Assembly (NCBI GenBank): GCA_035295465.1
Contig: DATGIZ010000035.1
Location: 74,677-138,676 of the forward strand
Length of the DNA stretch: 64,000 nt
Direction of reading: 5' to 3'
From: Candidatus Binatia bacterium
GTDB lineage: Bacteria; Desulfobacterota; Binatia; DP-6
Part shown: one piece after another, positions 5,322 to 21,203 of the stretch
Numbering within the stretch: position 1 is the stretch's first letter
How the letters are laid out: every line of letters starts with the position of its first letter
The notes under the pieces: generated by a model
What the model was told of the DNA's origin: nothing
Seen by the model: the letters and a program-made list of their open reading frames with translations, nothing else
Database searches by the model: none
Program-made: the position numbers and the translations under genes

Positions 5322-5391
5322 GCCCGGTCCCCGCGGGCCCCCCACACCAGGTCCTTCGATCGTCCATCAAGGTCCACACGCACCGTCCCCT

Positions 5392-8307
5392 TCAGCTCCA
5401 CGCACCGATCAACACAAACGGTGCCCAGAAGTATGGCGCCGCAAGCGATTCCTCCCGGCCGAGGGCATCGCTCTGAACCGTGCGCTCCATGAGCTCGATT
5501 CGCGCTAGCCGCAGGGCGTCCGCCTTCGTTGCGCCGTCCCGCAAGTGCCTGTAGAACGCCTCCATGAACAGGCTGGTGGACTGGTCGTTGACTGGCCACA
5601 AACTCGCCACCACCGCGCGGCTTCCAGCATATAGGAAGGCGCTTGTGAGGCCGACGAGACCCTCCCCGCGGTAAAGCTTCCCCTCAGCGGTGTTGCACGC
5701 GGACAAGACGACGAGTTCAGCGTTCAGTCGAAGATCGAATATCTCCGACATTTTGAGAAAGGGGTTTTCCCCATCCGTATCGGAAAAGACCAGCGTCGGC
5801 TGGTTGATCCACTTCACATCGTCGCCAACGACCGCGTGTGTAGCAAAATGCAGGATGCGATAGCGCCTTAGGTCGATGTCCTGCAGACGGCGCTTCGTCG
5901 CTCGCTCCCGCAGATTGATCACATCGGACCCGGGAGCTACCCCGTAGAGCGAGGCGATCCGTTGCACCTCGTTGGCCGAGTACGGCAGACGGCCAAAGCC
6001 GTGGCTCATGCGCTCGTAGGTACCGCGCACGTTGAACGCCACGGCACGGCCTTCGGGAGCGGACGAATATACGGGATCACCGAAAGCGAGAAGGGGCAAC
6101 TGTGGTTGCTCCTTGCTTACGCCCTCGCTGTAGCCCCGCCTCGTCAGGAAGACCAACACCGAGGCCGAGGGGGCGTAACTCACGGCATACTGCCTCGCAA
6201 GGTACGGCACCGACGACAGCGCGGGGTTCATCCTGCCGTCAGCATGTGCCGTTGGCCGAATGAGCGCCTCGAAGGGTAGGTAGCAGAGGGCCCCGGCGGG
6301 GATAACGACGACGTGCTCCCGCCCCCTGATCTCGTCGGCCGCTGGCTGAACCAGTATATGATAGAGCCGCTGACCGAGACGGATGTGGGACTTGATCTCA
6401 TCGGGACCTATGAGCGGGGTGTCAAGCGTCTTGCGGTAGCGTGCGACGAGGTCTGCGATACGGTCCCCTCTGGCAAGGGGGAGCAGACGCACATCGGTCC
6501 GGGTGACGACCCATAGCGCCGACACTTCCTCCCCCGATGGTCTCTCGCCCAGGGCATATTCCAGCAGGATGGTGTGGTCATCAAGGAGCGCCTGCACGTC
6601 TATGATGGAGGCCGTCTCGCTTCTCGCCGTCTGGGAACGGTCACTGGCCGCATGCGAAGAAGCCGTGGACACGGCCGCTGCCTCACTGGCGACGGCAGCC
6701 TCAAGGTCGGAGTGCGCCTGGCGACCAGCGGGGACCTGCTCCGAGAGGGCCCGCTTGAGGCTGCGAACCTGCTCCGATCCGGGCTCACGTGTCTCGTTAA
6801 TCATATCCAGGAGCGTGTGAGCCTTCCCCCTTTCGAGGTACTGGAATGCTTGAATAGCGTTCCCGTCGTTCCGTCCGTTTGCCTGAAGCTTCAGAGACGT
6901 CGCGACTGCATCTAAATAGAATTGCATTGCCTCGTCACGGACTGAGAGCTGCACACGGCCAGCCCGCTGTGCATGGCCGATCCGGTCAAGGATATCGATG
7001 GCCTGCGAATAGAGCGTCAGCGCCTCGTCGAGCTGGCCTTCCTCCTCTTTCACAGAGCCCATCTCATTGAGCAGGATATAGTCGTCCGGGTCGTGAACGC
7101 GCTGATCAACACGGCGAGCCTCTTCAAGTGCGCTCCACGCCGCCCGAAGCTGTCCAACCTGCTGGTATGCCAAGCCGAGGTTGTACAGGTCGCCGGCAAC
7201 TTCGCCGAGCGCCTCACGGCTCGCACGGGCAGCGACGCGGTGAAGCGCCAACGCCAACTTCGAGCATGCGATTGCGGAATCCACGTTGCCGTTCCAGGCT
7301 TCGACTTCCCCCAGCATTTGGAGGGCCACCGCGCCGTCCGGTGTCAGGGGGAACCCGTCGGCCCCGGCTGTCGTCTCCAACCAGTCCTGCAGTAGGCTCC
7401 GCAGGCTACTGAGTGCCGTCTGGGTGCATTGGCGCGTCTGCGCAGTGTCGTCTCGATCGTTGGCGACGGATGCGAGCATTCCGAGAGCGCGAAGCTGAAG
7501 ATTCCGATCGCCGGCCTCGCTGGCTTGACCGAGCGCATCGTGGAACCATCGCTCCGCCTCGTCCAAGTCCCCGACCAACTGGTGAACCTCGCCAAGGCCG
7601 ATAAGAGCCTCTGCGGCACGCTGGTGATCATCCGCGCGCAAAAAGTCCGCCAGCGCGGAATCGTATAGCTGAAGAGCCACGTCGTACCGGTCGCGATTCT
7701 GTGAGAAGAGGGCCTTGTCGAGCACCACTTGAGCTTCAAGAGCCCGGTCTCCGGTCTCGTGCGCCACCTCTCTCGCAGTCAGGAAAGACTGCTCGGCTTC
7801 CTTAGGCTTCCCCATGGCGTCCATCACGCGAGCTGAGGCCCGCAGCGCCGCGATCTCTGCGACCCGATCCCGTCGAGCTTGGGCGCGTTTGCGCCGTCCC
7901 TCGTAGAAGCGCACCGCCTTGGCTGGATCGGCTGGGCCTTGGACATCCGCCAACTCTCGCCCAAAGAGGTCAGCTAGACGCGCCGATCTCGAGGGAACCA
8001 GTTCAGTTAGAGCATCGAGCGCATCTGTCATCCGACCGAGCCGAAGAGAGGTCCGCACCAGAGCTACCAACACGTCCGGGTTCGCCGGATCGAGCTGTCG
8101 AACGCGCTGGAACGCCTCAAGCGCCTCCTGGTTGTGGCCGCCTTTCTCGAAGGCGAGGCCGGCACGGAAACATGCCCTGGTATCCCCGCGCTTCGAGGTG
8201 CTCCGGATTGCTTGGCAAGGATCGATGGCGCTTGCCACACCGCTGGCGGCGCTCACCAGAATGCACAAGCCCAGAATTCGCGTGGTGCTCACCGCAAGCT
8301 GCGTCAC
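5392..8307 (-). CDS. secreted TPR-repeat protein with C-terminal CHAT (caspase-like) protease domain
   Basis: N-terminal signal peptide MTQLAVSTTRILGLCILVSAASGVASA; multiple TPR-like repeats; the C-terminal CHAT domain has the His/Cys dyad (HFATHAV, LSACNTAEG); the GTG start overlaps the upstream gene stop (GTGA). Confidence 0.88.
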   Translation of the reverse strand: MTQLAVSTTRILGLCILVSAASGVASAIDPCQAIRSTSKRGDTRACFRAGLAFEKGGHNQEALEAFQRVRQLDPANPDVLVALVRTSLRLGRMTDALDALTELVPSRSARLADLFGRELADVQGPADPAKAVRFYEGRRKRAQARRDRVAEIAALRASARVMDAMGKPKEAEQSFLTAREVAHETGDRALEAQVVLDKALFSQNRDRYDVALQLYDSALADFLRADDHQRAAEALIGLGEVHQLVGDLDEAERWFHDALGQASEAGDRNLQLRALGMLASVANDRDDTAQTRQCTQTALSSLRSLLQDWLETTAGADGFPLTPDGAVALQMLGEVEAWNGNVDSAIACSKLALALHRVAARASREALGEVAGDLYNLGLAYQQVGQLRAAWSALEEARRVDQRVHDPDDYILLNEMGSVKEEEGQLDEALTLYSQAIDILDRIGHAQRAGRVQLSVRDEAMQFYLDAVATSLKLQANGRNDGNAIQAFQYLERGKAHTLLDMINETREPGSEQVRSLKRALSEQVPAGRQAHSDLEAAVASEAAAVSTASSHAASDRSQTARSETASIIDVQALLDDHTILLEYALGERPSGEEVSALWVVTRTDVRLLPLARGDRIADLVARYRKTLDTPLIGPDEIKSHIRLGQRLYHILVQPAADEIRGREHVVVIPAGALCYLPFEALIRPTAHADGRMNPALSSVPYLARQYAVSYAPSASVLVFLTRRGYSEGVSKEQPQLPLLAFGDPVYSSAPEGRAVAFNVRGTYERMSHGFGRLPYSANEVQRIASLYGVAPGSDVINLRERATKRRLQDIDLRRYRILHFATHAVVGDDVKWINQPTLVFSDTDGENPFLKMSEIFDLRLNAELVVLSACNTAEGKLYRGEGLVGLTSAFLYAGSRAVVASLWPVNDQSTSLFMEAFYRHLRDGATKADALRLARIELMERTVQSDALGREESLAAPYFWAPFVLIGAWS

Positions 8308-9941
8308 TTCTGACAGACGTGAACCTGCCGATACGGTATCGTCCCTTTGGCAAGCGCGGCGATCAACTCGCCGATCATCGAGGAGAGCTTGGGCGGGTGT
8401 TCGGGCTTGACGTACCGGGTCACTGTGTCGGCTCCGGCGTCTGCGTACCCGATCAAGTCAACGATCCCGTCACAGTCCACGTCGAAGTAGAACACGGTCG
8501 TCGCGGCCTTCGACTCAATGACGGTGTCGAGGGTGTTCTTCTCGTTGCGGCCGACGACAGCGTACTTCAGGGTCCGCGCCTGGGCGTCCCGATAAATGAG
8601 CCACATGTCGGGCGGCGGGACCGTGCTCTGCACATACGCGCCGGCGATTCCATGTCCGAATCGCTCCACGCGGTAGGCCGAGGGGGAAGACGGGGAGGTC
8701 ACAGGGGCAACCCGGCTCGTTGCCCGCTTGAGGAAATTGCTTACCTCGTCAGCGGCCACCGCATAGTTCAGCCCCTCCTCGCCCTCCCGCCGGAACGAGT
8801 TGATACCAATGATTTCTCCCTGATCGTCGAGGAGAGGGCCGCCGGAGTTGCCGGGGTTGATTGCGGTTTGGGTCTGAATGACCGTGCCCTGATGGAGCAG
8901 GTTGTCGCTACCCTTCCACTGGTAGTTCGGTCGAATCTGGCTAATGACGCCCGTGGTGTAGGTCCAGACCTCCCCCTCGGGATGGCCGATCGCATGGACG
9001 TCCTGCCCCACCTCGATCCTGCCTATATCGGCCACCGGAAGCCATGGGATGGTTCCGCGTGTTGGCGTCGCGACCTTCAGGAGCGCCAAGTCTGCGATCT
9101 GATCAACCTTCAAGAGCGTGGCGGCGTAGGCGGGCTCTTCCTCGATCGACACGCCGTGCTCCGGCTTGAACACCACAGCGATCTTGTTCGCATCTTCCAC
9201 GACGTGCGCGTTCGTCACGATGTGTCCGGCGGGGTCAACGACGACACCACTCCCAAGGCTCTTGTCAGTGACGAGCAGCACGGTGGCGGGGGCGGCCTTC
9301 TTGTAGAGCGCCACATCGTTCGGCCCACGTGTCTCTTCGAGGAGCAGGGTCTTGGGGAGCTGCTCCAGGGCGGAGAGGATCTGCTTGTCGAACGGCAACG
9401 AGGCAGCGGAGGGAGGCGGGGAGTGGCCAAGGACCGCTTGCTCTTGCGGTGAGAGGTCAGCGACCTCTTCCACGCGCGAGACAGCGCCTGGCGGACCGGG
9501 CGTCAGTTGGCGAGTGATGGTCAACCCTGTGAGACGCGTGACAACGAAAACCGCGACGCACACGGCGGCGAATTCCGCGGCGATGCGGGTGATAGGCACT
9601 CGGAAGAAAGTCTTCCAAGTCATCGAGACGACATGCGTGATTCGTGTCACCCGGGAGGGTGGCACGCCGACTCGCGCCGGGGACGACCCGGCCAGAAGCT
9701 TCGCCTTCCGGACGAGATCAGCAGGAGGGTCTTCTCCTGCCTCTTCGAGGCGCGCGAGCGCTCGCAGATCCGTCTGCCGATTCGTACAAGACGGACACGC
9801 CAGAAGATGCGACTCGACCGCGCGACGTTCTTCGGGGTCCAACTGCCCTTCCAGGTAAAGCCCCAGGGCAGCCGTTGACGGACAACCCGGGGCTCTTACG
9901 CGGCCCAGCCTCCGCAGCACATCGTCCGTGATCTCTTTCAC
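8304..9941 (-). CDS. anti-sigma factor (zf-HC2), TM helix, trypsin-like S1 serine peptidase fusion
   Basis: N-terminal CPSC...HLLACPSC zinc-finger anti-sigma motif; one TM segment AAEFAAVCVAVFVVTRL; an S1 protease domain with the H/D/S triad (TNAHVV, DLALLKV, GNSGGPL); a further C-terminal domain of unknown type. Confidence 0.8.
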   Translation of the reverse strand: MKEITDDVLRRLGRVRAPGCPSTAALGLYLEGQLDPEERRAVESHLLACPSCTNRQTDLRALARLEEAGEDPPADLVRKAKLLAGSSPARVGVPPSRVTRITHVVSMTWKTFFRVPITRIAAEFAAVCVAVFVVTRLTGLTITRQLTPGPPGAVSRVEEVADLSPQEQAVLGHSPPPSAASLPFDKQILSALEQLPKTLLLEETRGPNDVALYKKAAPATVLLVTDKSLGSGVVVDPAGHIVTNAHVVEDANKIAVVFKPEHGVSIEEEPAYAATLLKVDQIADLALLKVATPTRGTIPWLPVADIGRIEVGQDVHAIGHPEGEVWTYTTGVISQIRPNYQWKGSDNLLHQGTVIQTQTAINPGNSGGPLLDDQGEIIGINSFRREGEEGLNYAVAADEVSNFLKRATSRVAPVTSPSSPSAYRVERFGHGIAGAYVQSTVPPPDMWLIYRDAQARTLKYAVVGRNEKNTLDTVIESKAATTVFYFDVDCDGIVDLIGYADAGADTVTRYVKPEHPPKLSSMIGELIAALAKGTIPYRQVHVCQK

Positions 9942-10020
9942 GGCGACCTACCCTATCCTCGCTTCCCTGAGTGAGAGGACGTCCAAGGCACGCCTTTTTG
10001 TCTCCCGGGCCGGGCTGGGG

Positions 10021-10614
10021 CTACGATCCTGCTTCAAGGACGCCTGCTCTTCTCATACAGTCCTCGACCTTGGCCTTCGCGCGGAAGTGCTTCGATGCGA
10101 CGGTCCCTTGAGGAAGATCGAACACGGCGGCGATTTCGTCGTACGGGTAGCCTTCCGCCCGCCTCAGGAAGATCTGCCGATCGAGGTCGGTAAGTTCCTG
10201 CAGACAACGTACAGCTTGGTCGAGGAGCTGCCGCATGGTGGCGGCCTTCTCCGGATCCTGGCTCTCTGGCGTGAGCCATGTTGGGTCAGGTCGAGCACAT
10301 CCGGTGTCCTCTTCGGGGACCTCGCGGCGGCGAGCCTGCGCCCGCTGATAGTCCCTGATCTTATTGGCCGTGATGGTCCGCAGGAAGGCGCGAAACTCCC
10401 ATTCCGTATCCCCGTGGAACTGGTCCAGCGCCCCTTTCGCCAGAGTCAGGAAGACCTCCTGGAAGAGATCTTCCCGGCCGGCCTGTCCTAAGCCTTGAAC
10501 TTGCCTCAGGATTCCCCAGACGAGCCGCCTGTATCGGTCAACGAGAGCCTCCCAGACTGACCGTTCGAGGCCGGCGGCCCGTCTGATGCGCTCACGAATC
10601 TCCACCGCGACCAC
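10021..10614 (-). CDS. ECF subfamily RNA polymerase sigma-70 factor
   Basis: Region 2 is DLFQEVFLTLAKG; region 4 is YDEIAAVFDLPQGTVASKHFRAKAKV; it is co-oriented immediately upstream of the anti-sigma-protease gene. Confidence 0.85.
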   Translation of the reverse strand: MVAVEIRERIRRAAGLERSVWEALVDRYRRLVWGILRQVQGLGQAGREDLFQEVFLTLAKGALDQFHGDTEWEFRAFLRTITANKIRDYQRAQARRREVPEEDTGCARPDPTWLTPESQDPEKAATMRQLLDQAVRCLQELTDLDRQIFLRRAEGYPYDEIAAVFDLPQGTVASKHFRAKAKVEDCMRRAGVLEAGS

Positions 10615-10703
10615 GGAAAAAAAACCGAATTCCCGCGTCCTTCTCCCGCAGAGAGGCGACGTCCCAAGGGGACCACGCCAAGAAGGAAAGGGAGGACTCG
10701 ATC

Positions 10704-11018
10704 ATGGGCGACGCGCGTTGGTTGAAGAAGGCCATGCTGGGGGCGGCCATGCTCTGCGTGGCATCGTCGTCCGCTTGGGCCGACGTCTACGTCCACGGCT
10801 ACTATCGCGGGAACGGGACGTACGTCCAGCCATACGTTCGCAGCGACCCGGACGGGAACCCGTACAACAACTGGAGCTACCCGGGGAACGTGAATCCGTA
10901 CACGGGTCGCGTCGCACCTGGCAACGCCGATACGTACCTTTACAACTACTACAACCGGAACGGGGGCAGTGGCTTCGGAACGCTGGATGACTCCGAAGAC
11001 GAGGGTGGCGATGATTGA
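10704..11018 (+). CDS. small secreted protein with NPY/YxxN repeats and a polyacidic C-terminus
   Basis: Signal peptide AMLCVASSSAWA; Tyr/Asn/Pro-rich repeats; tail DDSEDEGGDD; it is divergent from the ECF sigma gene and paralogous to 11738-12034. Confidence 0.55.
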   Translation: MGDARWLKKAMLGAAMLCVASSSAWADVYVHGYYRGNGTYVQPYVRSDPDGNPYNNWSYPGNVNPYTGRVAPGNADTYLYNYYNRNGGSGFGTLDDSEDEGGDD

Positions 11019-11415
11019 ACGGCATCAAAGTGTGCAGAGTCCGTCGGGCCTCCGGTCCGCATCTGTGCGGCTCGCGGGACTGGCCCTACTCATGGCACTT
11101 TCGCTGGGCGCAAGCGGCTGGGCGGCCACCGTTGCCGAGATTGCGAAGAACCCCACCGGCTTCGATCAGAAAACGGTGACGGTGAGTGGTACCGCCGAGG
11201 CGGTTAGCAGCCGCACCTCACGCCGGGGCAACCCGTATACGACGTTTCGGCTCGCTGGCCAGGGCGAGGTGGTCAAGGTCTTCAGCTTTGGGACGCTGCC
11301 GATCAAGCCAGGGGATCGGGTCCAAGTCCAAGGCACCTTTCAACACGTGAAACACGTCGGTCCTAGCACGTTCTATGACGAGATCACGGCATCGTCGGTT
11401 GAGCCCACCAAATAG
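11011..11415 (+). CDS. secreted hypothetical protein, possibly a BOF/OB-fold-like periplasmic protein
   Basis: ATG at 11011 overlaps the preceding stop; signal peptide LAGLALLMALSLGASGWAA; a beta-rich pattern of the OB-fold type. Confidence 0.45.
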   Translation: MIERHQSVQSPSGLRSASVRLAGLALLMALSLGASGWAATVAEIAKNPTGFDQKTVTVSGTAEAVSSRTSRRGNPYTTFRLAGQGEVVKVFSFGTLPIKPGDRVQVQGTFQHVKHVGPSTFYDEITASSVEPTK

Positions 11416-11457
11416 CATGACGGTGCTTTGGGGCGCGGGCCATCAAGGAGATACGAT

Positions 11458-11685
11458 ATGAGAAGGATCGTGACGCTTGGTACCCTGGTTGCAGTTGCCC
11501 TCCTCTTCTCGCCACCCGTTTTTCGACCTCACCGAGCCGCGGCGCGGTCGGGGGCGGGCACTGGCGTGCCAGCGAACGACGTCGAGAAAAGTGGCTGCTG
11601 CTCTTGGCACGGGGGCGTCTGCGGGTGCGAGGGCAACCGGGTGCAGTGCTGCGACGGCACACTGAGCCCAAGCTGCACCTGCTAG
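11458..11685 (+). CDS. small secreted Cys-rich peptide (bacteriocin/toxin-like)
   Basis: AAGGAG RBS before the ATG at 11458; a signal peptide then the mature tail CCSWHGGVCGCEGNRVQCCDGTLSPSCTC, with 9 Cys in 28 residues. Confidence 0.5.
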   Translation: MRRIVTLGTLVAVALLFSPPVFRPHRAAARSGAGTGVPANDVEKSGCCSWHGGVCGCEGNRVQCCDGTLSPSCTC

Positions 11686-11737
11686 AGCTGCGACTCTTCA
11701 CCCGAGGATCCGTCATCGAGCACGAGGAGGGGGAAAA

Positions 11738-12034
11738 ATGAAGGTTCTTCTACTGACGCTCGTTGTTCTCATCACCGGTATCACCTGGGCAGGAAGCCCC
11801 ATCGTCGTTGCACCGGATGGGACTTACCTTGGGAACTTGAATAGTAACCCATACGATCCGAACTCCGTCGCCAATCCCTACGGCCGCTACGGCAGTCCGT
11901 ACAGCCCAGACAGCATCAACAACCCGTACGGGCAGTACGGGAGTCCGTATAGCCCGAATAGCGTGACGAACCCGTACGCCGTACCTAGCCTCCCGCCGTC
12001 TGACAGCGGATTAGGTGACGACGACGAGGACTGA
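11738..12034 (+). CDS. small secreted protein with NPY/SPYSP repeats and a polyacidic C-terminus (paralog of 10704-11018)
   Basis: Signal peptide MKVLLLTLVVLITGITWAGS; repeats NPYDPNS / NPYGRYGSPYSP; tail GDDDED. Confidence 0.55.
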   Translation: MKVLLLTLVVLITGITWAGSPIVVAPDGTYLGNLNSNPYDPNSVANPYGRYGSPYSPDSINNPYGQYGSPYSPNSVTNPYAVPSLPPSDSGLGDDDED

Positions 12035-12732
12035 GGTGGGGCGCACGTCGCGAGCCGCGCCCGCAGTCGAAGGCACGACACCCTAGGGCCCATTGGGCAC
12101 ACGTCCGCCACGCGGCTGCACATGAGCGGGGTCGAGCCGGGGCGGCACCGCCAGCCGCTGGCGCCCCGAACCTCGGGGCCGCCGTGAGCAACCTGCCGAT
12201 CGTGGGGCCCACCCTCGGGCGCCTTGCCGGGGGCGTCGACAACGCCGTGGCCAACCCGGCAGGGGCCATGCGCGGCGTGCTCGGCGGCGTGGGCGATTGA
12301 TGTGAAGTTCCCCCAGTCGCCGACCGTCTTGCGACATCGGCGCCGAGATTGGCTCGTCGCTCGTCTGGGTGCTGTCCTAAGTAGGGCCGCAGGCTTGCCC
12401 ATCACAAGGCGGCCGTCCGCGTCCATGAGACGCTACGGGTGACGCCCGCAATGGCGCTTGGAGTGACGGACCATGTATGGACGATCGCGGAGTTGGTTGA
12501 TGCCGCACTCTCGGCTCCGGTACCCCCGCCGCTCCTGCCCCCAGGTCAGCAGACCCTTCCGGGCATGAGCGCGGGTCGGGCGAAGGGGACGCGCGGAGGA
12601 CAGCGGCATGGCGAGCGGCCCATACGACTTCGCGTCATCAAAGGCGGTCGAAGCGTCTGACGCAACGCTTCGGGGCCGCCGAAGCACCCCCGTTGGCGGC
12701 AGCGGCGCATCTACGCTACCCTGCCGTCACCG

Positions 12733-13212
12733 ATGCCCTATTCGGCCAAAGCAATCGCCAACTGGTTCTTGAAGAGGGACGAGCTGAGCCCAATGAAGCT
12801 TCAGAAGCTCGTCTACTTCGCCCACGGTTGGAAGCTCGGCCTCCGGGGCACGCCGCTGATCAATGAGGAGATTGAGGCGTGGGACTACGGGCCGGTGGTG
12901 CCCGACCTCTATCACGAGTTCAAGCAATTCGGCAGCGCACCGATCACGGCCTTCGCGACGCGTTGGAAGCTCGACGACGGGAAGCCGCGGTTGGTGCAGC
13001 CGCTCGTCCCGCCCGATGCCGTAGACACGCAAGCCCTTCTCCGTCGCATCTGGAAGGTCTACGGGCACAAGACCGGTGGACAACTGTCCGCCATTACACA
13101 CCTTCCCGACTCGCCGTGGAGTCAGATCCGGCGAGAGTGCAACACTCGCGGCGCCGTCATTCCTAACGAGCGCATCGCCGCGTATTTCAAGCGCCTCGCT
13201 CAGCGTCCGTAG
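12733..13212 (+). CDS. Panacea domain (DUF4065) protein, SocA/PanA-like antitoxin
   Basis: MKLQKLVYFAHGW ... EAWDYGPVVPDLY is characteristic of DUF4065; a small toxin candidate lies immediately downstream, its ATG abutting this gene's TAG stop. Confidence 0.78.
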   Translation: MPYSAKAIANWFLKRDELSPMKLQKLVYFAHGWKLGLRGTPLINEEIEAWDYGPVVPDLYHEFKQFGSAPITAFATRWKLDDGKPRLVQPLVPPDAVDTQALLRRIWKVYGHKTGGQLSAITHLPDSPWSQIRRECNTRGAVIPNERIAAYFKRLAQRP

Positions 13213-13692
13213 ATGAGCGATGAGGTCCGCCCGAAGCCTTCAACGGAGGAACCCCCGCCGAAGGCCGAGCTGGACCTCATTAAGGTCCCCGCCGAGCCCC
13301 TTCCCGAGGAGGAGGGTGAGCGTTTCGAGCGGCAGGAAGCGGAAGCACTTGATCGCGAGCGGACAAAGGAGGACCAGCTCCAAGATCGCGAGCGCCAGCT
13401 CGCGCTGGACATCAAGGAGCACGGTCTCCGTCAAGCCCGGCACGAGCTTGCGGAACGCACCAAGTACGCGGGCCGCCTCTTCAACCTCATCCTGTGGTGG
13501 CTGGTCGGGATAGGCGGGATCATCCTCCTTCAGGGATTTCATCGACTGCCGTTCTGGCCACACATTCGCTTCAGGCTCTCTGATCCGGCCCTGCTCGCGC
13601 TCATCGGAGGCACGACGCTCAACGTCCTCGGCATCTTCGTCGTCGTGGTGAACTACCTCTTCCCCAAGCGAAGAGATGGGCGAATGTTCTAA
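13213..13692 (+). CDS. small membrane protein, candidate PanT-like toxin partner
   Basis: The ATG directly abuts the PanA stop; a charged coiled-coil N-terminus and two predicted C-terminal TM helices (LFNLILWWLVGIGGIILL, LIGGTTLNVLGIFVVVVNYLF). Confidence 0.45.
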   Translation: MSDEVRPKPSTEEPPPKAELDLIKVPAEPLPEEEGERFERQEAEALDRERTKEDQLQDRERQLALDIKEHGLRQARHELAERTKYAGRLFNLILWWLVGIGGIILLQGFHRLPFWPHIRFRLSDPALLALIGGTTLNVLGIFVVVVNYLFPKRRDGRMF

Positions 13693-13815
13693 CTTCCCGT
13701 CGCGGGTGTCCGACTTTAGGACATCACCCTCGTCCGCGCGACATTGCAACGGATGCGCGTTTCGGTCTAGAAGAGGTACGTTCTCCGTGTCGGAGCCCGG
13801 GGAAGTCGTTGTGAC

Positions 13816-15390
13816 GTGAGCAATCGACGAGCGCGCGGCGCACCTCGGAGAGACCGTGCCTCCGGGCCTGAACTGGTCTTCGGCGTCGTAGGGGCCTTGG
13901 GTACCGACGTCGGCAGGCTCACGAGCACCCTACAGGAAGCACTCTCCGACTTCCGCTACACGCCTGTTCCCATTCGCCTCTCGGATCTGCTGCGCGAGTT
14001 CCCGGCTTGGAGCGGTCTGCCAAGGAGCCCGCACGATGACAGAATCGAAGCGCTTCAGAACGCCGGAAACGAGCTGCGCAAGGCCGGCGGGGGCGAAGCG
14101 ATGGCGGCCCTCGCCCTTGCGGAGATCCAGGGATACCGAACGCGTAACGGCCACGATGCGAAGAAGCCAGTAAGCGCTGCCGCGTACATCCTCCGATCAC
14201 TGAAGCACCCCGCAGAAGAGGAGCTGCTGCGAGCGATCTATGGCTCGTCGTTCTTCCTCATCGCCGCCTACGCTCCGATAGAGGAGCGGCGGAAAAACCT
14301 CGCGCGCGAGATAGCACGGTCCCGCCATGGCATGCGCCAAGCCGAGGCGCTCGCCCGGTCCGACACCCTGATCCAAAGGGACGATCACGAGCAGGATCGC
14401 TCGCATGGACAGCTAGTTAGGGACACGTTCCCGCGCGCCGACGTGTTTGTTGCAGTTCATCGCCCCGATGAGACGGTTGAACAGATGCAGCGCTTCGTCG
14501 ACTTGGTCTTCGGCCACCCGTTCCACACCCCAACACAAGACGAATTCGCGATGTTTCAGGCTCGAGCGGGAGCACTGCGATCAGCGGATCTTTCCCGCCA
14601 AATCGGTGCAGCGATTGCGACGGGGCATGGCAGCGTTGTGGCCCTTGGAACAAACGAGGTGCCCAGGGCCGGCGGCGGCCAGTACTGGTCTGGGGATCGT
14701 CCGGACCACCGAGATTTTCAGCTCGGAGAAGACGAGAGTCTCCGTATCCGTAGCAGCATGCTGGCCGAGATACTCCTGCGGATGGAAGCTGAGGGGTGGC
14801 TTCAGATGGAGGTCGGGACAAGAGTCAAACGGGACGTGGACAGGGAGGTCGGAGTCCTATTGCCCCTTCTGAGGGAGACGACCATGATGAGCGTCGGAGA
14901 GTTCGGCAGGACGGTACATGCCGAGATGGCAGCTCTCATGGATGCCGCTAGACGCGGCGTACCTGTTCAGGGCTCTACGCTCTTTTCCACCACGTTTCCC
15001 TGCCACAACTGCACCAAGCACATCGTGGCAGCAGGGATAAGAAGGGTCGTATACATTGAGCCCTTCCCCAAGAGCCGTGCGGCAGAGCTTCACGATGATT
15101 CGATCGTTGTTGATCCCTCCGGGCAAGTCGAGGGGAAGGTGAACTTCGAGCCCTTCGTGGGCATCGCGCCGAGGCGCTACCTCGAGCTTTTCACGATGCA
15201 GCGTCGTGAGAACCCTGACGGTTCGGTTGTTCGATTCACGAGGGCGGCCGCTGCCCCGCGAGTCTCGGCAACGAGGGGCTACGTAGAGACGGAAGACGTC
15301 GCGGTCGTCGAGCTTTGGAAACGGCTGAAGCAAGCTGGTATGAGGCTCCACACGCCCGAAGGAAGGCGCCGCGGGACAGTGAGGAGGTGA
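13816..15390 (+). CDS. dCMP/cytidine deaminase zinc-binding domain protein with a long N-terminal domain (anti-phage dCTP deaminase-like)
   Basis: C-terminal HAEMAAL...PCHNCTKHIVAAGIRRVVY deaminase motifs (HxE, PCxxC); a roughly 270-aa N-terminal domain of unknown type; GTG start; on the island next to a toxin-antitoxin pair. Confidence 0.62.
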   Translation: MSNRRARGAPRRDRASGPELVFGVVGALGTDVGRLTSTLQEALSDFRYTPVPIRLSDLLREFPAWSGLPRSPHDDRIEALQNAGNELRKAGGGEAMAALALAEIQGYRTRNGHDAKKPVSAAAYILRSLKHPAEEELLRAIYGSSFFLIAAYAPIEERRKNLAREIARSRHGMRQAEALARSDTLIQRDDHEQDRSHGQLVRDTFPRADVFVAVHRPDETVEQMQRFVDLVFGHPFHTPTQDEFAMFQARAGALRSADLSRQIGAAIATGHGSVVALGTNEVPRAGGGQYWSGDRPDHRDFQLGEDESLRIRSSMLAEILLRMEAEGWLQMEVGTRVKRDVDREVGVLLPLLRETTMMSVGEFGRTVHAEMAALMDAARRGVPVQGSTLFSTTFPCHNCTKHIVAAGIRRVVYIEPFPKSRAAELHDDSIVVDPSGQVEGKVNFEPFVGIAPRRYLELFTMQRRENPDGSVVRFTRAAAAPRVSATRGYVETEDVAVVELWKRLKQAGMRLHTPEGRRRGTVRR

Positions 15391-15393
15391 GTC

Positions 15394-15564
15394 ATGGTGG
15401 ACAAGGGGCAGAAGCCATCGGGCTGGATTGGTCGCAGGATGGAGGACTTGGAGCGAGAGTCGAAAGACTGGCCCATCTGGAAGCAAGAGGATCTCCGAGA
15501 GCGCCTCGAGCGTGATGGTGTGCAGTGCGTAGAGCCTTCCGATCAGCCTCGAGGCAAATCGTAG
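15394..15564 (+). CDS. small hypothetical protein (56 aa) overlapping the deaminase stop
   Basis: GAGGAGG RBS 6 nt upstream of the ATG; a charged product MVDKGQKPSGWIGRRMEDLERESKDWPIWKQEDL...; not in the ORF track (under 60 aa). Confidence 0.3.
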   Translation: MVDKGQKPSGWIGRRMEDLERESKDWPIWKQEDLRERLERDGVQCVEPSDQPRGKS

Positions 15565-15582
15565 CAGCGCGTCGACGGGCGC

Positions 15583-16167
15583 ATGCGCACCGTGGTGACC
15601 CGCGCCGACTGGCTCGGCGCCTCTGGCCCCACGAACGCGTTCCTATGGGAGCAAGTGGCGCGGCGTCGTGGCGAAAGCCCCACAGCGCCCGTGGCCGTCG
15701 TGCGGTTGGAGGACCTTGCCCCGGGTGCAAGCGCCGACACCGCCCCCGACCCGCAGCACACGGCACCCGGGGCACCAGCCGTGGCCGTGGACCCGGGCGT
15801 GCCACTTCGCCGCCGCGCCGCCGGCGCTCCTCTGGCGCTCGCGATCACGTCAACGGCGCTCGCGTCAGGGAGGCGAGTCGAGTGCCCGCATTGCGGGGAG
15901 CACTTCACGCCGGCGCCGAAGCCCGGGAAGAAACCGACGCGCCGCCTGCCACCGGATGCCCGGTTCCTCAGTTGGCTCGCGGCTCGGGGCGGCAGTGCCT
16001 CCGTGAGCAGCATCGCCCGCCGGTTCCACCTGCGCCGAGCCGAGCTTGTCGTCCTCCTCGGCCGCTTCGCCCACGCCGGTGTCGTCTTGAACCACGACGG
16101 CCGTGGTGGCGGCTACCGCTTTCACTTGCTGCGCGTGCCCGCCCGCTCGAGCGCGCTGGCCCTGTAG
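15583..16167 (+). CDS. hypothetical protein with a CPHC zinc-ribbon-like motif
   Basis: ORF only; CPHCGEHF motif; no recognisable family. Confidence 0.35.
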   Translation: MRTVVTRADWLGASGPTNAFLWEQVARRRGESPTAPVAVVRLEDLAPGASADTAPDPQHTAPGAPAVAVDPGVPLRRRAAGAPLALAITSTALASGRRVECPHCGEHFTPAPKPGKKPTRRLPPDARFLSWLAARGGSASVSSIARRFHLRRAELVVLLGRFAHAGVVLNHDGRGGGYRFHLLRVPARSSALAL

Positions 16168-16648
16168 CTGGTGCGAGGTGGGTGCGGGTTGGGCACGCCC
16201 AGCTCCGCGGCCGCATCTCGCGCACGCGCCCGGCAGGCCGCGCCATGCGGAACGCAGTCCCACCGCTGGCACTAGTCGGTACCGGTCCGGATTAGGAATC
16301 CGCGGAGCGGTTCTAGGCAGCGGAACTCCCAGGGGTTTCCAGCGCCTCTCCGCCTTCTCTCCGCGTCGCGACCAAGCCGGGCTCGCCGATCTGCCGTGAT
16401 CGCTGCTGAGGCGATCGCGAAGGGGGGGACTATAGCACTTTGGCCGTTTGCCGGGCTGGGGCACGCCCCTTCCCGGAATTACTAAAGCGGCTCACAAGAG
16501 CTTCGACGCGCTGCGTTAGCACCGAGCGCACCGAGCCCTCCGTGCACTCACGGCGTCCTCGATGGAGCCCCGACGTGCGACGTCGGCGGTGCGACGTGCT
16601 TACTCGGCCGTCGTCTCGCCGGACTGTCTCGTTCGCTCGATTCGTTTG

Positions 16649-17242
16649 CTACGCGTGCGATCGTTCGACAGCCACACTGCCCCAAGCAGGACGGCAAGTA
16701 GCAACAGCATGGTGATGACCACAAGTAGCGCATGCACCGAAAGCACGCTGAGCACCACGAAGCACCCGATGCCGAGCACGCACAGCGTCACGACCACTGC
16801 CCAGGCATACCGAATACGGCGACGGCGCGCGGATTCGCCCACGACACCGATATACGTGAACGCCTTCACCGCCTTTTCCGAAGTCGGGGTTGCGGCGCAT
16901 CGCCGCCACGGCGCGGCGGTGCCGCCTCTCGACGGGGAGACGTAAGACTGCGTAGAGTGCTTCCAGACCGGCCACGATGATCCCCAGCGTTGCGAAGACT
17001 ACGTTCTCCGCGTGAGTGTATGGTCTTCCTCCCCGGTCGAACACGAGGACCTGGACGAGCACATAGAGGACAAGGGCGACGCAGGGCGGCCAGAATGTCC
17101 ACGCGGCAGCGAGGTTGTAGCGATGCTTCGCCCGTTCGCAGGCCACTAACGTTTCGGCTAGGTCGTTCGCTTCGCGTGCACCGAACGCCAACCCGTCCTT
17201 GACTGCCTCAACGATCGTGTACCGTGAACCTTCTCGCGTCAT
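16649..17242 (-). CDS. hypothetical membrane protein (extent uncertain; the C-terminal third is probably read-through)
   Basis: Two hydrophobic helices; competes with an overlapping 89-aa membrane ORF (16600-16869) in another frame. Confidence 0.25.
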   Translation of the reverse strand: MTREGSRYTIVEAVKDGLAFGAREANDLAETLVACERAKHRYNLAAAWTFWPPCVALVLYVLVQVLVFDRGGRPYTHAENVVFATLGIIVAGLEALYAVLRLPVERRHRRAVAAMRRNPDFGKGGEGVHVYRCRGRIRAPSPYSVCLGSGRDAVRARHRVLRGAQRAFGACATCGHHHAVATCRPAWGSVAVERSHA

Positions 17243-17321
17243 GGGTCATTCCAACAAGAAATTCGCGTGGCGTCGCCGCTTCTTCGATGGAGCGTAGCTC
17301 CCCCCGCAGGGGAGCGGCAAA

Positions 17322-18107: not shown

Positions 18108-18225
18108 GGATGATGCTGGCGTGCAAGCCCTTGCGCCGCCTGTTCATCCTCGCTGCCGCCTTCGACCACTTTGTGCCCTGGATTCAGCCTTGGTGCCCTT
18201 GAAGCGGTGGGCTACCTCCCTACCC

Positions 18226-18456
18226 ATGATGACAAGTCCCGACCGCCTACTGACCTGCCCGGAGGTGGCACATCGGCTAGCGGTGAGCCCCTCAACCATC
18301 AGGCTCTGGACCGCGCAGCGCCGCATCCCGTCGGTCAAGATCGGTCCCAGCGCAGTCCGATACCGCTGGGACGACGTCGAGGCCGTGATCCGTGCCGGCG
18401 AGCGGCCCCGTCTCGACAGAAGCGGCCGTGAGACCCCACCGCCGGAGGCGGCGTGA
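18226..18456 (+). CDS. excisionase/AlpA-like helix-turn-helix DNA-binding protein
   Basis: LLTCPEVAHRLAVSPSTIRLWTAQRRIPSVKIGPSAVRYRWDDVEAVI is an excisionase-family HTH; it is divergent from the XRE regulator. Confidence 0.62.
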   Translation: MMTSPDRLLTCPEVAHRLAVSPSTIRLWTAQRRIPSVKIGPSAVRYRWDDVEAVIRAGERPRLDRSGRETPPPEAA

Positions 18457-18712
18457 AAGGACGAAACGCCGCGCGGCCCAGCGAGAGCACGGCGCGGCGT
18501 TCCAGCTAACGAGCTATGCGCCACCTACACCGGAAGCGTCCCCCACGCAATGCACTCCTGCTCCCGTGGGTCGAGCGTGCCCCCACCGACTTCCTCGCGC
18601 GGGGCTGGGCAATCCTGCGCGAGCGCGATCCCGATGAGGTTCGAGCGGTGGTCGATGTGGTCGAGGAGCGCCTCGCCGCCGCACGACGAGCACGGAGGAG
18701 GAATCGCGCCGT

Positions 18713-21200: not shown

Positions 21201-21203
21201 GCG

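What the first reader, a model, noticed from the sequence alone, without database searches (positions are those of the whole stretch)
10615..12034. Divergent cluster of four small secreted proteins next to the ECF sigma: two NPY-repeat/polyacidic paralogs, an OB-fold-like protein and a 9-Cys peptide
Four consecutive short ORFs lie 90 bp upstream of the sigma gene, divergent from it. Each has a clear signal peptide. Two are paralogs, built from Asn-Pro-Tyr / Ser-Pro-Tyr repeats and ending in runs of Asp/Glu (DDSEDEGGDD, GDDDED). One carries CCSWHGGVCGCEGNRVQCCDGTLSPSC, a knottin- or bacteriocin-like Cys framework. Their tight spacing, an overlap (11011 versus 11018) and position make them likely targets or substrates of the sigma and protease module, or secreted effectors or toxins. 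The intergenic 10615-10703 begins with an A8 run unusual for this genome and is a candidate ECF promoter region.
Basis: seen in the sequence. Interest (0 to 1): 0.6.

Follow-up and report, generated by a model that had tools for sequence, protein, structure and literature searches.

The report
Sigma-controlled operon of small exported proteins
Four real, tightly packed genes for small exported proteins lie on a mobile genomic island, behind a conserved promoter that fits the neighbouring stress-type sigma factor. Three of the four protein types are common but unstudied passengers of phages, so this locus gives a way to find out what they do.

Summary
The four ORFs are real genes. Each has a Shine-Dalgarno site and a signal peptide, and each has many homologues. 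They are not a paralogous set: they belong to four unrelated families, and none passes a Pfam threshold.

- **ORF1** is the conserved divergent partner of an [ECF sigma / zf-HC2-TM-trypsin anti-sigma / TPR-CHAT] module. This held in 8 of 10 contexts sampled, even where the sigma is only 27% identical.
- **Promoter:** seven intergenic regions share GGAAA(A-run)-N16-(C/A)GTC at a fixed 87-89 nt from the ORF1 start. This is ECF geometry. The A8 run is unique in the 64 kb window.
- **ORF2** is an exported OB fold.
- **ORF3** has 8 Cys, not 9. It is a single-lobe relative of E. coli YdcA and of Legionella Dis2, a disulfide-pinned protein close to the outer membrane.
- **ORF4** is a single NPY/SPY module.
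- **Distribution:** the ORF1, ORF3 and ORF4 families occur in at least 159, 50 and 129 IMG/VR contigs. ORF1/ORF3 pairs recur next to phage repressor and integrase genes.
- **Context:** the whole locus lies in a 19.5 kb tRNA-Leu island together with a dCTP-deaminase defence gene.

Best reading: a sigma-dependent operon of envelope proteins carried on a mobile element. Its biochemical function is inferred, not shown.

The parts
10615..10639 (+). Putative ECF-type promoter of the ORF1-4 operon: -35-like GGAAA/GAAA (10615-10619), A8 run (10617-10624), 16-nt spacer, -10-like CGTC (10636-10639)
   Evidence: The motif is invariant in the alignment of 7 homologous spacers. Spacing from the A-run to GTC is 22-23 nt, and from the A-run to the ATG 87-89 nt. 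It is the only A run of 7 or more in the window. The geometry matches the GTAA-N16-CGT of DdvS promoters.
10655..10679 (+). GC-rich hairpin in the presumed 5' UTR (GGCGACGTCCC-AAG-GGGACCACGCC)
   Evidence: Hairpins with different stem sequences sit at the same place in all 7 loci (read). The folding energy is not better than shuffles, and RNAalifold found no consensus on the MAFFT alignment. Weak evidence.
10704..11018 (+). ORF1, 104 aa: signal peptide, conserved core DVYVxGYYRxxGTYVQPYxRSDPDGNPYNNWSYPGNVNPYTG, short helix, disordered acidic tail
   Evidence: 146 homologues (alignments). AlphaFold2 core pLDDT 81-89. No Pfam, NCBIfam or PDB relative. Matches phrog_29674 at E = 1.4e-12. It is the conserved partner of the sigma module.
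11011..11415 (+). ORF2, 134 aa: signal peptide plus OB-fold domain with an invariant SRRGNPYTTF segment
   Evidence: 58 homologues. AlphaFold2 pLDDT 84.7 overall and above 95 for the domain. Foldseek hits OB folds including CcmE 8ce8_E. The Pfam CcmE score is below threshold.
11458..11685 (+). ORF3, 75 aa: signal peptide, variable linker, C-terminal 8-Cys module GCCSWHGGVCGCxGxRVxCCDGTLSPSCTC
   Evidence: 775 representative clusters (alignment). hhalign to E. coli YdcA gives 84% probability, E = 7e-6. The family profile hits both lobes of Legionella Dis2 (7muc_AN) at E = 6.4e-10.
11738..12034 (+). ORF4, 98 aa: signal peptide, one ~55-aa NPY/SPY module (DGTYLGNLNSNPYDPNSVANPYGRYGSPYSPDSINNPYGQYGSPYSPNSVTNPYA), acidic tail
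   Evidence: More than 2100 homologues, mostly with two modules. The single-module form is found in at least 129 IMG/VR contigs. No Pfam or PDB relative.
10021..10614 (-). ECF sigma factor
   Evidence: Pfam Sigma70_r2 and r4_2; TIGR02937 at E = 3.6e-26.
8304..9941 (-). Anti-sigma factor: N-terminal zf-HC2, one transmembrane segment (about residues 124-142), periplasmic trypsin/HtrA-like protease with the H/D/S motifs, and a C-terminal domain with a DxDxDG-like motif
   Evidence: Pfam zf-HC2 at E = 7.9e-10 and Trypsin_2 at E = 6.8e-32. Hydropathy analysis.
5392..8307 (-). TPR-CHAT protease with an N-terminal signal-peptide-like segment and an intact His/Cys dyad (LHFATHA, VVLSAC)
   Evidence: Pfam CHAT at E = 6.5e-67 plus TPR repeats. 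Dyad motifs are conserved in the window, L091 and L094.
3658..23188 (.). About 19.5 kb genomic island bounded by 60-nt direct repeats (3658-3717 and 23129-23188). The right repeat is the 3' half of tRNA-Leu. The island contains all of the above, plus Panacea/SocA (12733-13212), a dCTP-deaminase defence gene (13816-15390), Prim-Pol, DUF3987 and an integrase (21773-23299).
   Evidence: tRNA-Leu call. Repeat match of 57/60. GC is 62-67% inside against 70-77% outside. Pfam context. PADLOC dCTPase at E = 4.6e-152.

Best explanation
ORF1-4 form one operon on a tRNA-Leu integrative island. They encode four unrelated small Sec-exported envelope proteins.

The operon is most likely transcribed from an ECF-type promoter (GAAA-N16-CGTC) by the divergently encoded ECF sigma. 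That sigma is held at the membrane by a zf-HC2 anti-sigma whose periplasmic part is a trypsin/HtrA-like protease. A separate exported TPR-CHAT caspase-like protease is encoded in the same operon as the sigma.

Inferred chain of events:
1. An envelope signal activates periplasmic proteolysis, by the TPR-CHAT protease and/or the anti-sigma's own protease domain.
2. The anti-sigma is removed by regulated proteolysis.
3. The sigma is released and the operon is transcribed.
4. The four proteins are exported to the periplasm.

What the four proteins are:
- ORF1 is the constant member of this arrangement.
- ORF3 is a disulfide-pinned, Dis2/YdcA-like module.
- ORF2 is an OB fold.
- ORF4 is an NPY/SPY module. 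ORF2, ORF3 and ORF4 are exchangeable cargo.

The ORF1, ORF3 and ORF4 families also travel alone in prophages, often beside the repressor and integrase. I therefore take them to be autonomous envelope-acting accessory proteins of the 'moron' type that here have been placed under an inducible envelope sensor.

Shown: gene reality, families, folds or motifs, synteny, promoter conservation, and island context.
Inferred: sigma dependence, the proteolytic cascade, periplasmic location, and any protective role.
For: Operon structure:
- The ORFs are tightly packed (8-nt overlap, gaps of 42 and 52 nt) and each has a strong ribosome-binding site.
- No sigma-70-like promoter was found inside the cluster.

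Synteny:
- The sigma|ORF1 divergent pair is present in the window, L052/L013, L091, L094-96, L097-99, L100, L101 and L104-107.
- The full sigma + trypsin anti-sigma + TPR-CHAT set is visible in the window, L091, L094/95 and L104-106.
- Sigma identity to the window falls to 35-37% and then 27%, while ORF1 stays at 58-78%.

Promoter:
- GGAAA + A-run and (C/A)GTC are invariant in 7 spacers, with conserved spacing to the start codon.
- The A8 run is unique in the window.
- The geometry equals the GTAA-N16-CGT of DdvS promoters, where the AA and GT bases are essential.

Precedent: DdvS/DdvA, an ECF sigma plus a zinc anti-sigma with a periplasmic TPR-CHAT, switches on adjacent island genes.

Export and envelope location:
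- Signal peptides on all four proteins.
- The ORF3 module is homologous to Dis2, which was solved in situ near the outer membrane with disulfides.
- ORF1-family proteins are found fused to SH3_3 and next to PG_binding_1 genes.

Autonomy and mobile-element cargo:
- At least 159, 50 and 129 IMG/VR contigs carry the ORF1, ORF3 and ORF4 families.
- None of 130 viral loci has a sigma-like ORF.
- ORF1/ORF3 genes are adjacent or near each other in 8 of 50 ORF3-anchored viral loci.
- In L215 the pair lies between an S24 repressor and the integrase.
- 76 plasmids carry an ORF1 relative, 52 of them conjugative.

Island.
Against: - There are no expression data of any kind. The promoter is assigned by conservation and geometry only.
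- Its -35 lacks the usual AAC at the right distance. It reads GGAAA followed by an A-tract.
- The A/T run also lies 2 nt upstream of the sigma start codon in 4 of the 7 loci, so part of its conservation could serve sigma translation or transcription instead.
- No matching motif was found upstream of the sigma operon, so autoregulation is not seen.
- In the 43%-GC locus L104 the motif is not clear.
- Synteny was sampled with only 8 look-ups plus two other contexts, all of them metagenomic. Seven of the eight positive loci are high-GC soil relatives.
- Two ORF1 contexts (L092/93 and L108) lack the sigma.
- ORF2 homologues are mostly solitary elsewhere.
- Signal peptides were judged by eye and by hydropathy, not by SignalP.
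Confidence: 0.62

Rival explanations
1. ORF1 is part of the signalling device rather than its output. It would be a periplasmic ligand, bait substrate or inhibitor of the TPR-CHAT and/or the anti-sigma's trypsin domain, playing a role like securin for separase, Csx30 for Craspase, or OMP C-termini for DegS. The disordered acidic C-terminal tail would be the recognised element, for example by a TPR carboxylate clamp.
For: - ORF1 is the only cargo gene that stays constant next to the module, while the other genes vary.
- It is far more conserved than the sigma: 58% against 27% identity in L104.
- Acidic C-termini recur in the ORF1 homologues of sigma-linked loci, in ORF4, and in the small acidic proteins of L091, L094 and L100.
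- The tail is predicted to be disordered.
Against: - The same family is abundant in phages and plasmids that have no sigma, trypsin or CHAT gene nearby. It must therefore work without them.
- The L104 homologue has no acidic tail, while the sigma-less L092 homologue has one.
- No interaction was tested.
Confidence: 0.18
2. The cassette is an inducible envelope-level defence. On a phage-related or other envelope signal, the sigma switches on small periplasmic proteins that block entry of phage or conjugative DNA, in the manner of superinfection exclusion.
For: - DdvS/DdvA sets the precedent of a TPR-CHAT/ECF sensor controlling a defence island.
- The locus lies in an island with a dCTP-deaminase defence gene and a Panacea toxin-antitoxin pair.
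- ORF1/ORF3 pairs lie in the repressor-integrase (lysogeny) region of a prophage.
- ORF1-family genes are enriched near the ends of viral contigs: 27 of 60 against 15 expected, p = 7e-4.
- Other sigma-linked loci sit beside mobile or phage-like genes.
Against: - This is purely guilt by association.
- None of ORF1-4 matches a PADLOC model.
- No exclusion protein is known to share these motifs (from my own knowledge).
- Mobile-element cargo can have many other roles.
Confidence: 0.2
3. The four genes are independent, constitutively expressed moron-type genes that merely landed next to the sigma operon. The conserved A-run belongs to the sigma gene's own 5' region.
For: - The T-run is directly upstream of the sigma start codon in the window, L052, L097 and L101.
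- The sigma gene has no Shine-Dalgarno sequence, so a U-rich leader could matter for its translation.
- All four families also occur elsewhere without the sigma.
Against: - In L091, L100 and L094 the A-run is about 30 nt or more from the sigma start, yet it keeps its distance to GTC and to the ORF1 start.
- The sigma|ORF1 pairing survives down to 27% sigma identity and across a change from 72% to 43% GC.
Confidence: 0.12
4. This is a cluster of secreted bacteriocins, toxins or knottin-like peptides.
For: - The products are small.
- ORF3 has a Cys-rich C-terminal module.
- One ORF3 family member gave a marginal Conotoxin Pfam hit (E = 0.005, 1 of 24 members).
Against: - All four have ordinary Sec-type signal peptides rather than double-glycine leaders.
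- No C39 peptidase/ABC exporter, modification enzyme or immunity gene is present in the island.
- The relatives of ORF3 are a resident periplasmic protein (YdcA) and a structural protein of the T4SS outer-membrane cap (Dis2).
- The families are far too broadly distributed for typical narrow-spectrum bacteriocins.
Confidence: 0.04

Closest known systems
DdvS/DdvA of Myxococcus xanthus (an ECF sigma plus a transmembrane zinc anti-sigma with a periplasmic TPR-CHAT, controlling a CBASS-CRISPR island; PMC11506125, PMC6061681)
   Same: - An ECF sigma.
- An anti-sigma with an N-terminal zinc-finger (zf-HC2) domain and one transmembrane helix.
- A periplasmic TPR-CHAT with a His-Cys dyad.
- Target genes next door, driven by GxAA-N16-CGT promoters.
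- A mobile or defence-island setting.
   Different: - Here the TPR-CHAT is a separate exported protein.
- The anti-sigma instead carries a trypsin/HtrA-like protease, so there are two periplasmic proteases.
- The adjacent targets are four small exported proteins, not CBASS or CRISPR genes.
- The host is Binatia-like, not Myxococcota.
Craspase (type III-E gRAMP with TPR-CHAT Csx29, Csx30/Csx31 and an ECF sigma; PMC10028731)
   Same: A TPR-CHAT protease is genetically coupled to an ECF sigma, and a partner protein restrains that sigma.
   Different: Craspase is cytoplasmic, RNA-guided and CRISPR-linked. None of these features is present here.
RpoE/RseA/DegS envelope-stress pathway (textbook knowledge)
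   Same: An HtrA-family periplasmic serine protease domain and a single-pass anti-sigma. An envelope signal is transmitted by proteolysis.
   Different: - The protease domain is fused to the anti-sigma itself.
- No PDZ domain was detected.
- There is an additional caspase-like protease.
Legionella Dis2 (Lpg0823, Dot/Icm T4SS outer-membrane cap; PDB 7MUC/7MUD) and E. coli YdcA (b1419)
   Same: - The ORF3 module shares GCCSxxGG...GRxVCxDGxxS..C with both lobes of Dis2 (E = 6.4e-10).
- It also aligns with YdcA (84% probability).
- All are small, exported and Cys-rich.
   Different: - ORF3 has one lobe with 8 Cys. Dis2 has two lobes with 5 disulfides. YdcA has 4 Cys.
- No T4SS genes are present in the island.
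- The Dis2 papers describe the protein as species- or order-specific, with no homologues and no known function.
Periplasmic OB-fold proteins (CcmE haem chaperone; BOF/YgiW-type stress proteins, the latter from my own knowledge)
   Same: ORF2 is a signal peptide followed by a single five-stranded OB domain. CcmE (8ce8_E) is the second-best Foldseek hit.
   Different: - The Pfam CcmE score is 15.3, below the 24.6 cut-off.
- The His of the family's FHDEI segment is a Tyr in this protein.
- No BOF hit was found.
Prophage 'moron' and lysogenic-conversion genes, including small periplasmic superinfection-exclusion proteins (general phage biology, from my own knowledge)
   Same: - The ORF1, ORF3 and ORF4 families are short exported proteins.
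- They are found in hundreds of viral contigs, including between the repressor and the integrase.
   Different: No sequence relationship to any characterised exclusion protein was found. Here the genes are under an inducible sensor rather than the lysogeny promoter.

Membership tests
ECF sigma-dependent promoter/regulon | -35 with AA(C) and -10 with (C)GT, separated by 14-17 bp, upstream of the target gene | tested here: met
   GAAA (10616-10619), a 16-nt spacer, then CGTC (10636-10639). The motif is invariant in 7 homologous spacers.
ECF sigma-dependent promoter/regulon | Transcription depends on the cognate sigma | not testable with these tools
   No expression data are available. This needs a reporter assay, 5'-RACE or RNA-seq.
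DdvS/DdvA-type system | ECF sigma plus an anti-sigma with an N-terminal zinc-binding anti-sigma domain and one transmembrane helix | tested here: met
   Sigma70_r2 and r4_2; zf-HC2 at E = 7.9e-10; one strong hydrophobic segment at residues 124-142.
DdvS/DdvA-type system | The TPR-CHAT domain is the periplasmic part of the anti-sigma polypeptide | tested here: not met
   The TPR-CHAT is a separate ORF (5392-8307). The anti-sigma carries Trypsin_2 instead. The same split is seen in L091, L094 and L104.
DdvS/DdvA-type system | CHAT His-Cys catalytic dyad | tested here: met
   LHFATHA and VVLSAC are present in the window, L091 and L094.
Dis2/YdcA Cys-rich module (ORF3) | Sequence motif GCCSxxGG(V/I)..C..G.xVCxDGxxS..C after a signal peptide | tested here: met
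   The family profile against PDB sequences gives E = 6.4e-10, with both Dis2 lobes aligned. hhalign to YdcA gives E = 7e-6. NCBIfam PRK10040 models hit 10 of 24 family members, all below their curated cut-offs.
Dis2/YdcA Cys-rich module (ORF3) | Two-lobe architecture and association with a Dot/Icm-type T4SS | tested here: not met
   ORF3 has a single module. No T4SS genes are among the island's called genes.
OB fold (ORF2) | Five-stranded closed beta-barrel | tested here: met
   The AlphaFold2 domain has pLDDT above 95 with five strands. 24 PDB OB-fold hits have E <= 1e-3.
CcmE haem chaperone (ORF2) | Pfam CcmE score above the gathering threshold, and the haem-binding His in the C-terminal HDENY-like segment | tested here: not met
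   The score is 15.3 against a cut-off of 24.6. This protein has FYDEI where many homologues have FHDEI.
Bacteriocin / knottin (ORF3) | Dedicated leader with a processing/export system and an immunity gene | tested here: not met
   ORF3 has a Sec-type signal peptide. No such genes were found in the Pfam scan of the neighbours.
Bacteriocin / knottin (ORF3) | Cystine-knot disulfide topology | not tested
   BLASTP E = 1.6. hhalign gives 19% probability, over the signal peptide only.
PHROG phrog_29674 (ORF1) | Profile match | tested here: met
   E = 1.4e-12 over residues 8-69. The family has no known function.

The most novel reading that the evidence does not exclude
The four-part set [exported TPR-CHAT, zf-HC2/TM/trypsin anti-sigma, ECF sigma, ORF1-type small exported protein] is a mobile, self-contained envelope-surveillance system. 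It would be a split, two-protease relative of DdvS/DdvA. Its effectors would not be nucleases or CBASS but small periplasmic proteins (the ORF1, Dis2-like ORF3 and ORF4 families) that block phage or conjugative DNA entry on demand. That would also assign a first function to three large, unannotated phage-borne protein families, and to E. coli YdcA and Legionella Dis2-like modules.
Probability: 0.15. Interest if true: 0.8.

Novelty: new variant of a known kind. Interest (0 to 1): 0.55.

Why it matters
1. It defines a recurrent signalling module that, as far as I could find, has not been described. An ECF sigma's zinc anti-sigma carries its own HtrA-like protease and is teamed with a separate periplasmic TPR-CHAT caspase-like protease. 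The only characterised TPR-CHAT anti-sigma (DdvA) was reported as narrowly distributed, and its signal is still unknown.

2. It identifies the likely output. Three of the four output families (ORF1, ORF3 and ORF4 types) are abundant, strongly conserved, unannotated small exported proteins of phages, plasmids and islands. A sigma-controlled copy gives an experimental switch for studying them.

3. It links E. coli YdcA and Legionella Dis2, which was described as having no homologues, to a family of at least 775 clusters.

If the cassette proves to be an inducible envelope barrier, it would be a new class of defence effector.

Tried and rejected
- **Pfam and NCBIfam:** no family for ORF1, ORF3 or ORF4; only sub-threshold OB-type hits for ORF2.
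- **PADLOC:** nothing for ORF1-4.
- **Rfam on 10400-12800:** only a chance miRNA hit, E = 0.88.
- **Sigma-70 promoter and terminator scan:** nothing above the shuffled background. The stem-loop after ORF4 is not better than shuffles.
- **5' UTR hairpin:** the energy z-score is about 0, and RNAalifold found no consensus. Kept only as a side note.
- **GTDB genome scan with the ORF2 profile:** 6 distant loci, with no shared neighbourhood.
- **JGI metagenome scan with the ORF2 profile:** 78 loci. ORF2 is mostly solitary; only L013 and L052 keep ORF1.
- **INPHARED phages, tblastn with ORF1:** no match. **Plasmids with ORF3:** no match.
- **Foldseek of the ORF1 model against PDB:** nothing significant. 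The weak hits to T4SS outer-membrane core chains (probability <= 0.47, 22-29 residues) were rejected.
- **Foldseek of the ORF1 model against BFVD:** only uncharacterised phage proteins.
- **Literature search for DUF3761, YdcA and the motif strings:** nothing useful.
- **DUF3761:** my recollection that ORF3 resembles it (CSxHGGV / CxDGxxSxS) was not borne out by hmmscan.
- **CcmE-like haem chaperone for ORF2:** rejected (see the membership test).
Full report
**1. What is there**

The window is a 72%-GC soil-metagenome contig. The same sequence is held as JGI Ga0070734_10000240 and as an NCBI 'Candidatus Binatia bacterium' MAG.

Four same-strand ORFs lie downstream of an 89-bp spacer that separates them from a divergent ECF sigma gene (10021-10614, minus strand):
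- ORF1, 10704-11018, 104 aa
- ORF2, 11011-11415, 134 aa
- ORF3, 11458-11685, 75 aa
- ORF4, 11738-12034, 98 aa

ORF1 and ORF2 overlap by 8 nt. The other gaps are 42 and 52 nt. Each ORF is preceded by a GGAGG-type ribosome-binding site. Each protein starts with a basic/hydrophobic segment that ends in an AxA-like site. Independent gene callers in three public sources called ORF1, ORF2 and ORF4, and one of them also called ORF3.

The sigma gene is followed on its own strand by two genes:
- An anti-sigma (8304-9941) with an N-terminal zf-HC2 domain, one transmembrane segment and a Trypsin_2/HtrA-like domain.
- A 971-aa TPR-CHAT protein (5392-8307) with a signal-peptide-like N-terminus and intact His/Cys motifs.

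**2. The four proteins are four different families**

ORF1 and ORF4 share composition, the tripeptide NPY and an acidic tail, but they are not detectably related. BLASTP gives E = 1.6, and profile-profile comparison aligns only the signal peptides. None of the four passes any Pfam or NCBIfam threshold.

*ORF1*
- 146 homologues were found, with a strikingly conserved 45-residue core, DVYVxGYYRxDGTYVxPHxRSxPDGNPYNNWSYPGNVNPYTG.
- Relatives include proteins named as Ekhidna (Bacteroidota) and fusions to SH3_3.
- AlphaFold2 gives moderate confidence: core pLDDT 81-89, short beta-hairpins, one helix, and a disordered acidic tail.
- The model has no significant PDB match, and the family has no PDB sequence relative.
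- ORF1 matches phrog_29674, a family of unknown function.
- A second subtype (..HxRTAPNxTKLDNWSTRGNVNPYTGxxGTK) often accompanies it.
- The N-terminal half of the motif also heads a secreted HNH endonuclease (L097 and L041).

*ORF2*
- 58 close homologues carry an invariant SRRGNPYTTF segment.
- The predicted domain (pLDDT above 95) is an OB fold.
- It is not a CcmE. The Pfam score is below threshold, and the His of the family's FHDEI segment is a Tyr here.

*ORF3*
- The structure is a signal peptide, a variable linker, and an invariant C-terminal module, GCCSWHGGVCGCxGGRxxCCDGTLSPSCxC. It has eight cysteines, not nine.
- An exhaustive HMMER search found 775 representative clusters.
- The family profile aligns with E. 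coli YdcA at 84% probability, E = 7e-6. NCBIfam PRK10040 models hit 10 of 24 members.
- Against PDB sequences, the profile matches both lobes of Legionella Dis2/Lpg0823 (7MUC and related entries) at E = 6.4e-10.
- ORF3 is therefore best described as a single-lobe Dis2/YdcA-like exported module. It is not a bacteriocin.

*ORF4*
- More than 2100 homologues share a ~55-residue NPY/SPY module, which is usually duplicated. ORF4 has one copy plus an unusual acidic tail.

**3. The conserved neighbourhood**

I looked up the contigs of eight ORF1 homologues, chosen only by similarity rank and contig length. Six have a divergent ECF sigma immediately upstream of the ORF1 homologue. Counting the window and L052/L013, that makes 8 of 10 contexts.

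Where the contig is long enough, the sigma is followed by a trypsin-domain anti-sigma and a TPR-CHAT. This is seen in the window, L091, L094/95 and L104-106. L097 shows the anti-sigma before the contig ends.

The arrangement survives large divergence:
- Sigma identity to the window is 70, 63, 37, 36, 35 and 27% across the other loci.
- ORF1 homologues stay at 58-78% identity.
- L104 comes from a 43%-GC organism.

What follows ORF1 varies from locus to locus:
- An ORF3 homologue (window, L097, L101, L093).
- The second ORF1 subtype (L091, L097, L100, L101).
- A 150-aa membrane protein (L091, L094, L100).
- Small acidic secreted proteins.
- An HNH endonuclease.
- A PG_binding_1 protein.
- A DUF4136 lipoprotein.

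ORF2 homologues are mostly solitary elsewhere. ORF1 is thus the constant partner of the module, and the other genes are exchangeable cargo.

**4. The promoter**

An alignment of seven sigma|ORF1 spacers is otherwise poorly conserved between lineages. It nevertheless keeps these elements invariant:
- GGAAA followed by an A-run.
- (C/A)GTC, 22-23 nt after the first G.
- A CA dinucleotide about 10 nt further on.
- The ribosome-binding site.
- A distance of 87-89 nt from the A-run to the ORF1 start.

In the window this reads GAAA (10616-10619), N16, CGTC (10636-10639). This is the geometry of DdvS-dependent promoters (GTAA-N16-CGT), in which the AA and GT bases are essential, and of ECF promoters in general. 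The A8 run is the only run of 7 or more A or T in 64 kb.

Caveats:
- The same run lies 2 nt from the sigma start codon in four loci.
- The motif is unclear in the low-GC locus L104.
- No transcription data exist.

**5. Mobile-element context**

A 60-nt direct repeat (3658-3717 against 23129-23188, 57/60 identical) duplicates the 3' half of tRNA-Leu. The repeats bracket a lower-GC segment (62-67% against 70-77%) that ends with an integrase.

This ~19.5 kb island contains:
- The sigma module and ORF1-4.
- A SocA/Panacea gene with an adjacent membrane protein.
- A dCTP-deaminase defence gene (PADLOC E = 4.6e-152).
- Prim-Pol and DUF3987.

Other sigma-linked loci also sit beside TrbC, IS66 or IS110 transposases, or phage-type nucleotide-modification genes.

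In IMG/VR, the ORF1, ORF3 and ORF4 families occur in at least 159, 50 and 129 viral contigs. The ORF2 family occurs in none. Further observations on the viral copies:
- Eight of 50 ORF3-anchored viral loci carry an ORF1-family gene within 3 kb, and in most it is adjacent.
- In L215 the pair lies between an S24 (CI-like) repressor and the integrase.
- In L222 the pair sits with a DUF5334 acidic protein beside an antirepressor.
- ORF1-family genes are enriched within 5 kb of viral contig ends: 27 of 60 against 15 expected, p = 7e-4.
- None of 130 viral loci has a sigma-like ORF.
- 76 plasmids, 52 of them conjugative, mostly from Xanthomonas and Burkholderia, carry an ORF1 relative.

These proteins therefore work without the sigma module. 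The module is a regulatory addition.

**6. Most likely mechanism**

*Shown*
- A compact operon of four exported small proteins.
- A conserved ECF-type promoter oriented towards it.
- A conserved divergent ECF sigma / zinc anti-sigma-protease / exported TPR-CHAT set.
- Location on an island.

*Inferred by analogy with DdvS/DdvA and with regulated proteolysis of anti-sigmas*
1. A periplasmic signal activates the TPR-CHAT and/or the anti-sigma's own protease domain.
2. The anti-sigma is removed and the sigma is released.
3. The operon is transcribed and the four proteins enter the periplasm.

Once in the periplasm, ORF3 folds into a disulfide-pinned module close to the outer membrane, as Dis2 does. 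ORF1 may be wall- or envelope-associated, given its fusions to SH3_3 and its PG_binding_1 neighbours.

What the proteins do there is open. Their position in prophage lysogeny regions and in a defence-gene island makes an exclusion or protective role the most attractive guess, but it remains a guess.

The main rival is that ORF1 is itself a ligand or substrate of the proteases. Its constancy, high conservation and disordered acidic tail speak for this. Its abundance in sigma-less phages speaks against it as the sole role.

**7. Comparison and novelty**

The regulatory half is a new variant of the DdvS/DdvA theme. The TPR-CHAT is split off as a separate protein, and a trypsin-like protease is fused to the anti-sigma. 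It fails the defining 'TPR-CHAT fused to the anti-sigma' feature, so it is not a DdvA family member, but it probably works like one.

The output half consists of uncharacterised families. The ORF3-YdcA-Dis2 link and the phage distribution of the ORF1, ORF3 and ORF4 families were not found in the literature I could search.

**8. Verdict**

The exceptions are the ORF1/ORF4 paralogy and the Cys count.
- The finding is worth follow-up at moderate priority. Interest is 0.55, and novelty is 'new variant of a known kind'.

Noticed in passing
window 3658-3717 and 23129-23188; tRNA-Leu 23134-23221 (minus); integrase 21773-23299: 60-nt direct repeats (57/60 identical) duplicate the 3' half of tRNA-Leu and bound a ~19.5 kb lower-GC integrative island. 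The integrase ORF as listed runs across the tRNA on the opposite strand.
   Followed up: partly
window 13816-15390 (+): A 524-aa deaminase matches the PADLOC dCTPase (dCTP deaminase) anti-phage defence model at E = 4.6e-152.
   Followed up: partly
window 12733-13212 and 13213-13692 (+): A SocA/Panacea-domain protein is directly followed, with no gap, by a 159-aa protein that has a charged N-terminal half and C-terminal transmembrane segments. This is a probable toxin-antitoxin pair.
   Followed up: no
window 10612-10626 (minus-strand reading): The sigma gene has no Shine-Dalgarno sequence. Its GTG start is preceded by UUUUUUUUCC. In L052, L097 and L101 the start is ATG in the same position.
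   Followed up: no
window 10655-10679 and the equivalent positions in L052, L091, L094, L097, L100 and L101: Each presumed ORF1 5' UTR carries a GC-rich hairpin at the same place, but the stem sequences differ (GUCCC/GGGAC, GAGCC/GGCUC, GCGCCG/CGGCGC, GCCGGC/GCCGGC). Energy and RNAalifold tests did not support it.
   Followed up: partly
L097 3288-3752; L041 3791-4255: Secreted HNH endonucleases begin, after the signal peptide, with the first half of the ORF1 motif (VHVRAYTTKSGHYVAPHTRTAP). This suggests the hairpin is a portable module.
   Followed up: no
L101 2059-2859; protein P0044 (C-terminal extension of an ORF2 homologue): A repeated Cys-rich segment (C..C.GPVFDY..G.Y...TDF...C...C..G...C) appears both after a PG_binding_1 domain and fused to an ORF2-type OB domain.
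   Followed up: no
L110 4631-4918 (Xanthomonas phaseoli plasmid NZ_CP029285.1): Another small exported Cys-rich protein (GNCPCPY...SCGRRSAYSRGGGYSPLCYP) sits directly upstream of an ORF1-subtype gene. Pairing of a Cys-rich protein with an ORF1-type small protein seems to be a recurring theme.
   Followed up: no
L100 2217-8355: The sigma|ORF1 locus lies next to genes typical of phage DNA hypermodification: HMUDK_hel, two DCD genes, thymidylate synthase, dUTPase-like, and an N6/N4 methylase.
   Followed up: no
L091 5924-6253; L094/L095 7661-7933; L100 3-245: A small secreted acidic protein (..DDDTIDTVSSDGDHIIMQSGEVYQSDDPGTSSTWQ..) recurs in three sigma-linked loci. It lies either between the sigma and anti-sigma genes or after the cargo genes. 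A DUF5334 acidic protein occupies a similar place in the phage locus L222.
   Followed up: no
window 27430-27524 (+): A tRNA-SeC (anticodon TCA) gene lies just outside the island.
   Followed up: no
window 12035-12732: A ~700-nt stretch of 68% GC between ORF4 and the Panacea gene has no convincing ORF. One source called an 86-aa gene at 12122-12380, and another called a 172-aa antisense ORF.
   Followed up: no
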